Origin: Octopus sinensis
Lineage: Eukaryota
NCBI RefSeq assembly: GCF_006345805.1
Contig: NC_043011.1
Coordinates: forward strand, 20,038,464 to 20,102,463
Direction of reading: 5' to 3'
Length of the DNA stretch: 64,000 bases
Part shown: one piece after another, positions 7,775 through 60,345 of the stretch
Layout: every line of letters starts with the position of its first letter
Numbering within the stretch: position 1 is the stretch's first letter
Notes under the pieces: model-generated
Databases searched by the model: none
The model's input: the letters and a program-made list of their open reading frames with translations, nothing else
Told to the model about the DNA's origin: nothing
Made by a program: the position numbers and the translations under genes

Positions 7775-7929
7775 CTTTTTCCTCCCCTTGTTTTTTCTGT
7801 GTCCCTTTCTGCAGAAGAGCGTAGGCTCGAATCGTAAAATACTTTTTCTATTCCTGAGCGTTATGCTGATATGTGTTTGTTTTGTACACCACCTGTCTTC
7901 GTCTTTTGTTTTCGTAAACTCTCCCAGTA
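7775..7929 (+). mobile_element. PLE terminal (pLTR) fragment with minimal HHR-variant remnant
   Basis: ctttCTGCAGAaGAGCgtagGCTCgaatcgtaaaatac. Homologous to the terminus of the PLE at 42645-42850 and to 33862-34038. Ends in (TA)n. Confidence 0.7.
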
Positions 7930-8240
7930 TATATATATATATATATACATAAATGTGCACATATATATAATATTTATGTGTGTATATGTATATGTATATA
8001 TATATATATATAATTAATCAATATAGGGTGGCAAAAAAAAATTTTGTAGAATTTTTTTGCCACCAGCGGCCTAGTGGGAAAAAAATTAAATAGTCATAGA
8101 CCATTTTTAAGTTCAACATCACAATCAAGGAACGGCCATAATAGGCCATTCACCCACTAGAAATAACAGCCAAAAGCTTTAACCGCAAAATAACATCAAT
8201 TCCGTAAACCAGGAGAAAATTAAAAAACATTTACCCTGTA

Positions 8241-8346
8241 ATTTCTTATACGATGCACCGTTTCGTCTACTGTTTAATGTAAACTAACCTGATTAAATTA
8301 AATCAAGCCAATCTACCATAGGCCCTTAGATTCATCAGTAAGAAAT
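8241..8346 (-). ncRNA. Type I hammerhead ribozyme (copy 1)
   Basis: Reverse complement of the motif at 8919-9025, with one 1-nt deletion in the stem II insert. Confidence 0.8.
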
Positions 8347-8918
8347 AGCCAAGTCGGAACAGATATTTTCACGAGGCATTCCCGTCCTGCCTCGGCAATA
8401 TCTGACCTAAAATTTTCAAATCATCGCGCTCGCGCCAAATTTATCGGCAGCAAATAAATATAAGCCGCCGATTCCATTACGGAACTAACCAGAAGATTCA
8501 TAATTAATCAATATAGGGTGGCAAAAAAAAGAAATTACAGGGTAAATGTTTTTTAATTTTCTCCTGGTTTACGGAATTGATGTTATTTTGCGGTTGAAGC
8601 TTTTGGCTGTTATTTCTAGTGGGTGAATGGCCTATTATGGCCGTTCCTTGATTGTGATGTTGAACTTAAAAATGGTCTATGACTATTTAATTTTTTCCCA
8701 CTAGGCCGCTGGTGGCAAAAAAATTCTACAAAATTTTTTTTGCCACCCTATATTGATTATTATGAATTTTCTGGTTAGTTCCGTAATGGAATCGGCGGCT
8801 TATATTTATTTGCTGCCGATAAATTTGGCGCGAGTGCGATGATTTGAAAATTTTAGGTCAGATATTGCCGAGGCAGGGACGTGAATGCCTCGTGAAAAAT
8901 ATCTGTTCCGACTTGGCT

Positions 8919-9025
8919 ATTTCTTACTGATGAATCTAAGGGCCTATGGTAGATTGGCTTGATTTAATTTAATCAGGTTAGTTTACCATTAAACAGTAGA
9001 CGAAACGGTGCATCGTATAAGAAAT
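8919..9025 (+). ncRNA. Type I hammerhead ribozyme (copy 2), predicted cleavage after GUA at 9017
   Basis: Stem I atttctta/taagaaat (8 bp). Core CTGATGA at 8927-8933. Stem II (a)tcta...taga(c) encloses a ~58-nt multi-hairpin insert. GAAA at 9002-9005. Stem III A-cgg(tgca)tcg-T with a palindromic loop. The 10.1/11.1 position is A.C rather than G-C. Confidence 0.85.
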
Positions 9026-9147
9026 TACAGGGTAAATGTTTTTTAATTTTCTCCTGGTTTACGGAATTGATGTTATTTTGCGGTTAAAGCTTTTGGCTGT
9101 TATTTCTAGTGGGTGAATGGCCTATTATGGCCGTTCCTGATTGTGAT

Positions 9148-9193
<46 letters not shown>

Positions 9194-9439
9194 TATATAT
9201 ATATATATATAATTAATCAATATAGGGTGGCAAAAAAAAATTTTGTAGAATTTTTTTGCCACCAGCGGCCTAGTGGGAAAAAAATTAAATAGTCATAGAC
9301 CATTTTTAAGTTCAACATCACAATCAAGGAACGGCCATAATAGGCCATTCACCCACTAGAAATAACAGCCAAAAGCTTTAACCGCAAAATAACATCAATT
9401 CCGTAAACCAGGAGAAAATTAAAAAACATTTACCCTGTA

Positions 9440-9546
9440 ATTTCTTATACGATGCACCGTTTCGTCTACTGTTTAATGGTAAACTAACCTGATTAAATTA
9501 AATCAAGCCAATCTACCATAGGCCCTTAGATTCATCAGTAAGAAAT
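9440..9546 (-). ncRNA. Type I hammerhead ribozyme (copy 3)
   Basis: Same motif on the minus strand of the second block. Confidence 0.8.
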
Positions 9547-10121
9547 AGCCAAGTCGGAACAGATATTTTTCACGAGGCATTCCCGTCCCTGCCTCGGCAA
9601 TATCTGACCTAAAATTTTCAAATCATCGCGCTCGCGCCAAATTTATCGGCAGCAAATAAATATAAGCCGCCGATTCCATTACGGAACTAACCAGAAGATT
9701 CATAATTAATCAATATAGGGTGGCAAAAAAAAGAAATTACAGGGTAAATGTTTTTTAATTTTCTCCTGGTTTACGGAATTGATGTTATTTTGCGGTTGAA
9801 GCTTTTGGCTGTTATTTCTAGTGGGTGAATGGCCTATTATGGCCGTTCCTTGATTGTGATGTTGAACTTAAAAATGGTCTATGACTATTTAATTTTTTCC
9901 CACTAGGCCGCTGGTGGCAAAAAAATTCTACAAAATTTTTTTTGCCACCCTATATTGATTAATTATGAATTTTCTGGTTAGTTCCGTAATGGAATCGGCG
10001 GCTTATATTTATTTGCTGCCGATAAATTTGGCGCGAGTGCGATGATTTGAAAATTTTAGGTCAGATATTGCCGAGGCAGGGACGGGAATGCCTCGTGAAA
10101 AATATCTGTTCCGACTTGGCT

Positions 10122-10228
10122 ATTTCTTACTGATGAATCTAAGGGCCTATGGTAGATTGGCTTGATTTAATTTAATCAGGTTAGTTTACCATTAAACAGT
10201 AGACGAAACGGTGCATCGTATAAGAAAT
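10122..10228 (+). ncRNA. Type I hammerhead ribozyme (copy 4), predicted cleavage after 10220
   Basis: Same motif as 8919-9025. Confidence 0.85.
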
Positions 10229-10344
10229 TACAGGGTAAATGTTTTTTAATTTTCTCCTGGTTTACGGAATTGATGTTATTTTGCGGTTAAGCTTTTGGCT
10301 GTTATTTCTAGTGGGTGAATGGCCTATATGGCCGTTCCTTGATT

Positions 10345-10453
<109 letters not shown>

Positions 10454-10484
10454 AATGTGCACATATATATAATATTTATGTGTG

Positions 10485-10521
<37 letters not shown>

Positions 10522-51810: not shown

Positions 51811-52390
51811 AAAGCGGCGAGCTAGCAGATTCGTTAACACGCCGGGCGAAGTGCGTAGCCTTATTCCGTCTGCCGTTAAGTTCCGAGTTCAAATTCCGCC
51901 GAGGTCGACTTTGCCTTTCAACCTTTCGGGGTCGAAAAATAAGTACCAGTTACGCACTGGGGTTGATGTAATCGACTTAATCCGTTTGTCTGTCCTTGTT
52001 TCTCCATTCTGTGTTTAGCCCCTTGTGAGTAGTAAAGAAATAGGTATTTCGTCTGCTGCTACGTTCTGAGTTCAAATTCCGTCAAGGTCGACTTTGTCTT
52101 TCATCCTTTCGGGGTCGATTAAATAAGTACCAGTTACGCACTGGGGTCGGTGTAATCGACTTAATCCGTTTGTCTGTCCTTGTTTGTCCCCTCTGTGTTT
52201 AGCCCCCTGTGGGCAGTAAAGAAATAGGTATTTCGCCAGTCGCTACGTTTTGAATTCAAATTCGAGTTAGGTCGACTTTGTCTTTTATCCTTTCAGCTTC
52301 ATAAATTAAGTTTCAGTGAAACACTGGGGTCGATGTAATCGACTAGTCCCCTCTCCTCAAATGTCAGGCTATGTGCCTTTAGTAGAAAAG
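51811..52390 (+). mobile_element. tRNA-derived SINE with three ~180-bp internal tandem units
   Basis: Head gcggcgagctagcaga..., repeated gagttcaaattcc...ggtcgactttg, tail gtgcctttagtagaaaagattatt. Confidence 0.85.
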
Positions 52391-59591: not shown

Positions 59592-60345
59592 TTCTTATTT
59601 CTTTACTGCCTACAAGGGGCTTAACACAGAGTGTACAAACAAGGACAGACAAACTGATTAAGTCGATTATATCGACCCCAGTGCGTAACTGCTACTTGCT
59701 TAATCGACCCTGAAGGATGAAAGGCAAAGTCGACAACGGCGGAATTTGAACTCAGAGCGTAGCGGCAGACGAAATACCTATTTCTTTACTTTACTACCCA
59801 CAAGGGGTTAAACACAGAGGAGACAAACAAGGACAGACAGACGGATTAAGTCGATTATATCAACCCCAGTGCTTAACTGGTACTTAATTTATCGACTCCG
59901 AAAGGATGAAAGGCAAAGTCGACCATGACAGAATTTGAACTCAGAACGTAACGGCAGACGAAATAGCTCTAAGCATTTCGCCCGGCGTGCTAACGTTTCT
60001 TATTTCTTTACTGCCTACAAAGGGCTAAACACAGAGCGAACAAACAAGGACAAACAAAGGTATTAAGTTGATTATACCGACCCCAGTGCGTAACTGGTAC
60101 TTGTTTAATCGACTCCGAAAGGCTGAAAGGCAAAGTCGACCTCGGCGGAATTTGAACTCAGAACGTAGCGTCAGGCGAAATACCTATTTCTTTACTACCC
60201 ACACGGGCTAAACACAGAGAGGACAAACAAGGACAGACAAATGGATTAAGACGATATGTCGACTCCAGTGCGTAACTGGTACTTATTTAACCGACTCCGA
60301 AAGGATGAAAGGCAAAGTCGACCTCGACGGAATTTGAACTCAGAA
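59592..60345 (-). mobile_element. Array of four ~180-220-bp SINE-derived tandem units
   Basis: Repeated caaggacagac..gattaagtcgattatatcgaccccagtgcgtaactggtact...ggcaaagtcgac...atttgaactcaga. Confidence 0.85.

What the first reader, a model, noticed from the sequence alone, without database searches (positions are those of the whole stretch)
8502..8560. Inversion junction coincides with the predicted ribozyme cleavage site
Seen: the predicted 3' cleavage product begins TAAGAAATTACAGGG (9018). The plus arm begins (AA)GAAATTACAGGG at 8529-8531, and at 9731-9733 in block 2, joined through AA microhomology to the A-run of the opposite arm. The arm therefore starts 1-3 nt from the cut site within a 490-nt unit. 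Inference: reverse transcription ran off the ribozyme-generated 5' end of the RNA, leaving a genomic record of in vivo self-cleavage. The two blocks are duplicates, so they count as one event.
Basis: partly seen in the sequence, partly recalled or inferred. Interest (0 to 1): 0.8.

Follow-up and report, generated by a model that had tools for sequence, protein, structure and literature searches.

The report
Twin-primed hammerhead retrozyme, head-to-head arms
This is one copy of an abundant non-coding jumping element with a self-cutting-RNA (hammerhead) motif, whose two mirror-image arms each end at their own fixed site, likely because both DNA strands prime copying of the same RNA; the junction next to the predicted cut site is real but only weak evidence that the RNA cuts itself in the cell.

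Summary
In detail: the plus arm starts 1-3 nt after a predicted type I hammerhead cut (9017/9018), and the two blocks are one event. 5' ends are enriched 2.3-fold in the 30 nt downstream of the cut (48-49 vs 21 expected; best window of 490). There is no sharp spike at +1 to +4 under strict calling (6 vs 3.2, P=0.11), and 89% of passes read through the cut. The excess comes from insertions where both arms stop there; this copy is not of that class. A sister family shows no peak at its own cut (8 vs 7.3) but piles up at the same distance from its start site. The cleavage record is therefore possible (about 0.4), not shown. The firmer result is different: inverted copies pair one arm ending at unit position 131 with one ending at 236, both on (TA)n. 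Either arm can be longer, their 5' ends are coupled, and they share rare variants. This is the Penelope 'tail' signature on a retrozyme and points to two-strand, two-site priming rather than fold-back.

The parts
8010..8530 (-). Block 1 'B' arm: 5' end in the T-run at about u207, 3' end at fixed site u236 on (TA)n; about 1.06 units
8529..9148 (+). Block 1 'A' arm: 5' end at u2-u4, reads through one cut site, 3' end at fixed site u131 on (TA)n; 620 nt
8523..8542 (.). Head-to-head junction: 8-A run of the B arm then GAAATTACAGGG; up to 2 nt of microhomology
8919..9025 (+). Type I hammerhead motif: stem I 8919-8926/9018-9025, CUGAUGA 8927-8933, long stem II 8934-9001 (A.C at 10.1/11.1 in this copy), GAAA 9002-9005, stem III, predicted cut after 9017
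8241..8346 (-). Hammerhead copy in the B arm of block 1 (first base after cut 8248)
8659..8762 (+). About 105-nt 'tail' between the two fixed 3' ends (u132-u236), holding a 13-bp hairpin
9146..9211 (.). (TA)n between the duplicated blocks
9209..9732 (-). Block 2 B arm (duplicate); first base after cut 9447
9731..10350 (+). Block 2 A arm (duplicate); first base after cut 10221
7928..8012 (.). Left copy of an 85-nt TA-rich target duplication (core at 7948)
10430..10521 (.). Right copy of the target duplication (core at 10450), behind (TA)n 10348-10449

Best explanation
This is a copy of a high-copy, protein-less repeat with a conserved hammerhead motif whose two head-to-head arms end at two different fixed sites on (TA)n, likely because a borrowed Penelope-type enzyme nicks both DNA strands, copies the same multimeric or circular RNA from both sites, and the two cDNAs are then joined by microhomology. 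SHOWN: 490-nt unit; at least 450 and 580 exact 3' junctions at u131 and u236; one of each per inverted insertion; variable 5' ends; ends coupled between arms; shared rare variants; seamless read-through of the cut; a 2.3-fold excess of 5' ends in u0-30. INFERRED: mobilisation by a Penelope-like RT-endonuclease; two primings in one complex; circular or uncleaved multimer template for the roughly 90% of passes that cross the cut. The pile-up after the cut is most simply a minority (about 10%) of templates that end at the ribozyme cut, with both cDNAs trimmed back to A/T microhomology, but I give that step only about 0.4, and about 0.3 that this particular junction arose so.
For: Partner arm ends at the other fixed site in 83 of 87 A-selected and 87 of 90 B-selected rows; A-A once, B-B never (rows overlap for insertions caught by both patterns). 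Sister family: 38 of 39 and 32 of 32. A arm reaches further 5' in 70, B in 30, tie in 21 of 121 pairs; fold-back of a B-primed cDNA cannot make A longer, and an A-primed one cannot supply the tail. Ends within 5 nt in the same lap: 21 of 121 vs 1.7 in shuffles; sister family, modulo the unit, 8 of 44 vs 1.4. Rare variants shared between arms 44%, between insertions 0.4%. (TA) on both flanks in 105 of 137. Hammerhead core nearly invariant, N7 variable (T86/C30/A28), six compensated pairs in stems I and II. Intact RT + GIY-YIG ORFs of 775-781 aa in the genome. A purified Penelope-like protein cuts and extends both strands and starts at two internal sites that bound the tail (PMC11167929).
Against: No autonomous partner sharing DNA with the unit among 50 GIY-YIG loci. 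No read-level RNA data. Shared variants show one source lineage, not one molecule (same lap 0.44 vs other lap 0.37). Tail is 105 nt (129 in the sister family), against 30-40 nt in print. For the cut step: strict u0-4 not significant, later laps marginal, sister family negative, and in vitro ribozyme mutants did not affect insertion and no RNA-seq ends were found at the cut in anole. Compensated pairs mark subfamilies, so they count few independent events.
Confidence: 0.68

Rival explanations
1. One reading: reverse transcriptase ran off the ribozyme-made 5' end, and the excess of ends after the cut (and this junction) is a genomic record of self-cleavage in vivo.
For: Best 31-nt window of all 490 starts at u489-490; 48-49 vs 21; 0 of 5000 simulations reach it; rate ratio 2.8 after AT content and distance strata. 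Only 6 ends in the 20 nt upstream vs 12.7 (K=0 and 8). Both arms stop in u0-35 in 12 of 88 first-lap pairs vs 3-5% in four control windows. Feet of stronger hairpins show no excess (0.84, 0.66). A few junctions sit at u0-2 (L212, L043, L184, both arms of L153). The sister ribozyme is predicted to fold less readily (5.6 vs 0-2.9 kcal/mol above the minimum), which could excuse its missing peak.
Against: Strict u0-4: 6 vs 3.2, P=0.11. Beyond 300 nt from the start: 14 vs 8.7, P=0.054. Uncoupled ends, the window's class: 1 of 146 vs 1.7 in u0-4, 12 vs 10.6 in u0-30. Sister family: 0 in u0-4, 8 vs 7.3 in u0-30. Distance strata were 100 nt wide and cannot exclude a narrow distance effect.
Confidence: 0.4
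2. The leading (A) enzyme tends to stall about 100-130 nt after its start, just upstream of the conserved module that both families share, and the trailing arm stops with it; in this family that distance happens to coincide with the cut.
For: A-arm stops peak at 102-132 nt in both families: 21 of 130 here and 10 of 43 in the sister family (P=0.0004 against longer distances), where the cut lies about 31 nt further and its bin holds 3 of 37. The families are alike from about u39 here and about u68 there (a two-sequence alignment), and both pile-ups lie just 5' of that edge.
Against: Some excess persists in later laps here (ratio 1.6). The sister pile-up overlaps a palindrome and its neighbouring bin is also high (u62-92: 19 vs 9.3). 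The cut bins of the two families do not differ significantly (P=0.29).
Confidence: 0.35
3. The pile-up is a joining hot spot: A/T runs and a small hairpin at u9-38 offer microhomology between the two cDNA ends or to (TA)n, with no template end there.
For: u1-36 is in the top tenth for self-complementary 4-mers; recurrent ends at u9 (7) and u22 (6-7) are microhomology sites; identical end pairs recur at palindromes elsewhere (89/89, 63/63).
Against: Ten other AT-rich windows give ratios of 0.5-1.3; more self-complementary windows (u163-220, u433-468) show smaller excess.
Confidence: 0.15
4. The inversion arises by self-priming or fold-back of a single strand at palindromes, the published proposal for head-to-head Penelope copies, with the tail left by endonuclease resolution.
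For: PMC3846280 and PMC8557442; 15 of 121 pairs meet within 1 nt in the same lap, often at short palindromes.
Against: 73 of about 124 pairs end more than 30 nt apart; the tail-less arm is the longer one in 70 of 121.
Confidence: 0.12
5. The shared stop is a transcription start near u1-30, not a cleavage end.
For: Pseudo-LTRs are reported to hold promoter-like motifs; it would also allow a differently placed peak in the sister family.
Against: No promoter evidence here; coincidence with the cut would be unexplained.
Confidence: 0.1

Closest known systems
Metazoan non-LTR retrozymes (Cervera and de la Pena 2020, PMC7229834; Li et al., bioRxiv 10.64898/2026.07.22.740005)
   Same: Protein-less tandem repeats of low G+C with one type I hammerhead per unit; dispersed monomers to multimers; Penelope-like elements proposed as mobilisers.
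   Different: Unit of 490 nt is slightly above the 150-450 bp quoted. Head-to-head arms with two fixed 3' ends were not found in the parts read ('inverted' occurs 0 times in the first paper and once, in a reference title, in the second). Long stem II; no RNA, circle or cleavage data here.
Endonuclease-bearing Penelope-like elements, e.g. anole Poseidon PAc (PMC11167929), Naiad/Neptune (PMC8557442)
   Same: Partial tandems, inverted 5'-truncated copy, tail at one end only, (TA)n or AT-rich targets, hammerhead upstream of two internal RT start sites.
   Different: No ORF; tail 105 nt rather than 30-40; arms up to 12.7 units; no autonomous element sharing the repeat was found.
L1 twin priming (recalled, no call)
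   Same: Two primings from the two target strands give an inverted 5' part joined by microhomology.
   Different: In L1, as recalled, the second priming is at a variable internal site and the arms barely overlap; here both starts are fixed and both arms copy the same stretch.
R2 with a 5' ribozyme (recalled, no call)
   Same: [quoted passage not shown]
   Different: There it is the rule for full-length copies; here at most about a tenth of passes stop near the cut.

Membership tests
Type I hammerhead ribozyme | Core CUGANGA / GAAA / NUH with three stems, stem I open | tested here: met
   Core 141-159 of 142-159 per position, N7 variable; stem I 8 bp; stem III 3-4 bp. Numbering recalled. Rfam gave no hammerhead match at gathering or E<=10.
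Type I hammerhead ribozyme | Covariation in stems | tested here: met
   399:1 AT126/GC15; 395:5 TA107/CG26; 396:4; 392:8; 410:471; 411:470; subfamily-level changes, few independent events
Type I hammerhead ribozyme | G10.1-C11.1 pair | tested here: not met
   A-T 79, A-C 29 (this copy), T-T 25, A-A 10 of 144
Type I hammerhead ribozyme | Self-cleavage | not testable with these tools
   Catalytic fold 2.9 kcal/mol above the minimum in this copy, 0-2.6 in four others
Non-LTR retrozyme | Tandem units, each with a hammerhead, at least two consecutive | tested here: met
   Arms up to 6.2 kb; cut region intact in length in 403 of 440 passes
Non-LTR retrozyme | No coding capacity, low G+C | tested here: met
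   Unit 63% A+T; none of the 40 longest open frames in the loci lies in an arm by its coordinates or look
Non-LTR retrozyme | Expressed as monomeric linear and circular RNA | not testable with these tools
   No RNA holder on record; contigs only
Penelope-like element (autonomous) | ORF with RT and GIY-YIG | tested here: not met
   None in the element; present elsewhere in the genome
Penelope-mobilised element | Inverted 5'-truncated copy with tail at one end | tested here: met
   147 of 191 insertions with a detected inverted partner; ends u131/u236 complementary
Penelope-mobilised element | AT-rich or (TA)n target | tested here: met
   105 of 137 with TA on both flanks; one flank is selected by the search pattern
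Penelope-mobilised element | Repeat shared with an autonomous partner | tested here: inconclusive
   No DNA match in 50 of 149 listed GIY-YIG loci, of 5029 candidates

The most novel reading that the evidence does not exclude
These insertions are a readable fossil record of the Penelope integration cycle: a dimeric enzyme primes both target strands at two fixed RNA sites, one per arm, on one circular or multimeric retrozyme RNA, which explains the inverted repeat and the tail at once; and about a tenth of templates were ribozyme-cut linear RNAs, giving genomic evidence that a metazoan retroelement hammerhead cleaves in the germ line.
Probability: 0.3. Interest if true: 0.75.

Novelty: new variant of a known kind. 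Interest (0 to 1): 0.55.

Why it matters
How Penelope-like elements make their inverted repeats and one-sided tail, which enzyme moves animal retrozymes, and whether these hammerheads cut in vivo are all stated as open in the papers read. A young family of roughly a thousand short copies gives countable tests. The strict one-A-one-B rule and the coupled ends favour two-strand priming over the published self-priming idea and tie retrozymes to Penelope machinery by insertion anatomy rather than by sequence kinship. The cleavage question becomes directly testable by comparing families with different cut-to-start distances.

Tried and rejected
Rfam: no match at gathering threshold, no hammerhead at E<=10. 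The first sample was biased by ranking and by a pattern at u14-40, so I resampled by 3'-junction patterns and left out 23 of 191 insertions that came only. BLAST ends overran some junctions (L086, L175, L260 called at u1-2 are u5-9); strict calling removed the sharp spike. Stalling at the foot of a stem: not supported by two stronger hairpins. AT content: no effect. Sloppy template jumps at the cut: length at the cut preserved in 403 of 440 passes, like controls at 90-98%. Autonomous partner: not found. Public runs: no RNA holder listed; contigs only; one contig starting at 9018 is explained by a variant at 9017 and was not counted; junction not bridged in listed pieces. Monomer circle versus multimer: variants shared by subsets of laps occur in 13 of 27 long insertions, some at period 2, 4 or 5; this fits multimeric templates or later duplication and was left undecided. 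An alternative 3' end in the sister family is rare (3 hits). Earlier scan notes: none.

Full report
OBSERVATION. The window holds, twice in tandem, a head-to-head pair of arms built from a 490-nt unit. With u1 = 9018, the first base after the predicted cut, the minus arm (8010-8530) runs from about u207 to u236 one lap later and the plus arm (8529-9148) from u2-u4 to u131 one lap later. The uncertainty comes from an 8-A run that can belong wholly to the minus arm. The blocks are 98% identical with the same junction, sit between (TA)n runs and are flanked by an 85-nt target duplication; unequal exchange between TA runs or an assembly artefact would both give this.

THE RIBOZYME. Rfam has no match, but the motif is a type I hammerhead by its core and stems; the region folds far better than shuffles (z -4.7). 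Across about 140-160 insertions the core is nearly invariant (0.3% non-majority letters against 2.9% for all columns), position 7 varies freely, and six pairs of stems I and II show compensated changes. The predicted cut is therefore well placed. Activity is untested; the usual G10.1-C11.1 pair is absent and this copy has A.C there.

THE FAMILY. The genome (2.72 Gb) holds 1042 exact matches to a 27-mer of the unit, 450 exact u131-(TA)n junctions and 580 exact u236-(TA)n junctions. I took all 100 listed places of the first and 93 of the 100 listed of the second, in genome order, plus loci. Of 191 insertions, 147 have a detected inverted partner, and the partner ends at the other fixed site in 83 of 87 and 87 of 90 rows; A-A occurs once and B-B never. 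Several partner-less copies show a 10-20-nt stub of the other end. Arms reach 6.2 kb. The two arms share 44% of rare variants, against 0.4% between insertions.

After dropping 23 insertions that came only from the ranked search, 168 insertions gave 291 arms and 281 uncensored 5' ends. Against a constant stop rate, u0-30 holds 49 ends for 20.7 expected; it is the best of all 490 windows, none of 5000 simulations reached it, and it survives adjustment for AT content and coarse distance (ratio 2.8). Four results cut the other way. First, 399 of 449 passes cross the cut, seamlessly. Second, with strict end calling u0-4 falls from 9 to 6 against 3.2 (P=0.11), while u0-30 stays at 48 against 21. Third, the signal lies in insertions where both arms stop there: 12 of 88 first-lap pairs against 3-5% in four control windows; among the 73 pairs whose ends are more than 30 nt apart, the class of the window's copy, u0-4 holds 1 of 146 ends against 1.7 (at a 15-nt tolerance 5 of 168 against 1.9). 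Fourth, beyond 300 nt from the start the excess is marginal (14 against 8.7, P=0.054).

A REPLICATE THAT FAILED. A sister family turned up beside a Penelope locus (L314): unit 535 nt, its own hammerhead, fixed ends 162 and 291 nt after the cut, 345 and 649 exact junctions. In 83 insertions (60 loci from the A patterns, 30 from the B pattern; 120 ends) the A/B rule holds in 38 of 39 and 32 of 32 rows and ends are again coupled (8 of 44 within 5 nt against 1.4), but u0-30 holds 8 against 7.3 and u0-4 none. Ends pile up at u31-92 instead (35 against 17.4). A arms in both families stop most often 102-132 nt from their start (21 of 130; 10 of 43), just upstream of a module the families share. This gives a real rival: a stall tied to the start site. 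The sister ribozyme has a 2-bp stem III and is predicted to fold less readily, and such motifs are reported to cleave poorly as monomers, so the failure is not decisive. I put run-off at the cut at about 0.4, the distance stall at 0.35, microhomology alone at 0.15 and a promoter at 0.1.

MECHANISM. The robust pattern is one arm from each fixed site. The tail-less arm reaches further 5' in 70 of 121 pairs, the tailed arm in 30. Fold-back of one cDNA cannot give the first class, so two RNA-templated primings are needed for most copies. Ends coincide within 5 nt in the same lap in 21 of 121 pairs against 1.7 in shuffles, which suggests one complex and probably one template. Junction overlaps of 1-8 nt and short insertions are common. 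I infer that an RT-GIY-YIG dimer nicks both strands of (TA)n, starts at u131 on one and u236 on the other, copies a circular or uncleaved multimeric RNA, and the cDNAs are joined head to head. Intact RT + GIY-YIG ORFs exist in the genome, but none of 50 loci examined shares DNA with the unit.

KNOWN WORK. PMC11167929 (parts 1-2 of 4 read) shows both strands cut and extended, two internal starts bounding the tail, a predicted dimer, no need for ribozyme cleavage in vitro and no RNA-seq ends at the cut. PMC8557442 (passages) describes inverted copies, a one-sided 30-40-bp tail and (TA)n targets. PMC3846280 (passages) proposes self-priming on an antisense template. PMC7229834 (passages and Discussion) and bioRxiv 10.64898/2026.07.22.740005 (part 1 of 5 and passages) define animal retrozymes and link them to Penelope-like elements. 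PMC4209133 and PMC6431247 were seen as passages. Seven searches listed no paper whose title or abstract start maps retrozyme breakpoints to the cut or states the one-site-per-arm rule; the library lacks most subscription papers and supplements were not read. L1 twin priming and the R2 comparison are recalled.

VERDICT. Observation confirmed; interpretation partly supported at family level and not shown for this copy. It works like a Penelope-mobilised non-LTR retrozyme, meets the sequence-level tests for that kind, and adds an unusually clear insertion anatomy. New variant of a known kind; interest 0.55.

Noticed in passing
L314:7764-8875 (G000:C6): Sister retrozyme family: 535-nt unit, different hammerhead, same head-to-head anatomy, 129-nt tail, several hundred copies; shares the start-site module with the window's family.
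   Followed up: yes
window:7780-7927: The left flank is the (TA)n-joined end of another repeat found beside 26 other fetched loci and at three Penelope loci; these elements pile into each other's TA runs.
   Followed up: partly
window:7598-7635: Degenerate hammerhead-like motif (CTGATGAG, short hairpin, no intact GAAA) about 400 nt upstream of block 1; seen by eye only.
   Followed up: no
L311:3753-6092, L312, L313, L314, L315, L316:2745-5069, L318: Intact 775-883-aa RT + C-terminal GIY-YIG ORFs of at least two families; in L311 and L318 a hammerhead-like motif with TTGATAA in place of CTGANGA lies about 65 nt before the (TA)n end.
   Followed up: partly
L316:6286-7228: Third head-to-head hammerhead element, with unique sequence between its inverted repeats.
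   Followed up: no
L220, L215, L278, L064: Rare variants recur at periods of 4, 5 and 2 laps within long arms, as multimeric circles or block duplications would give.
   Followed up: partly
window:9017: Contigs of three guessed-RNA runs often carry C at the cut position (GUC), against 4 of 159 genomic insertions; the runs may be other species or DNA.
   Followed up: no
L067:3196: An arm of this family is joined directly behind a sister-family end, a possible template switch between families.
   Followed up: no
window:17198-17616, 51862-52344, 59789-60345: Tandem 182-217-nt units of an abundant short interspersed repeat; it resembles repeats I recall from octopus genomes, untested.
   Followed up: no
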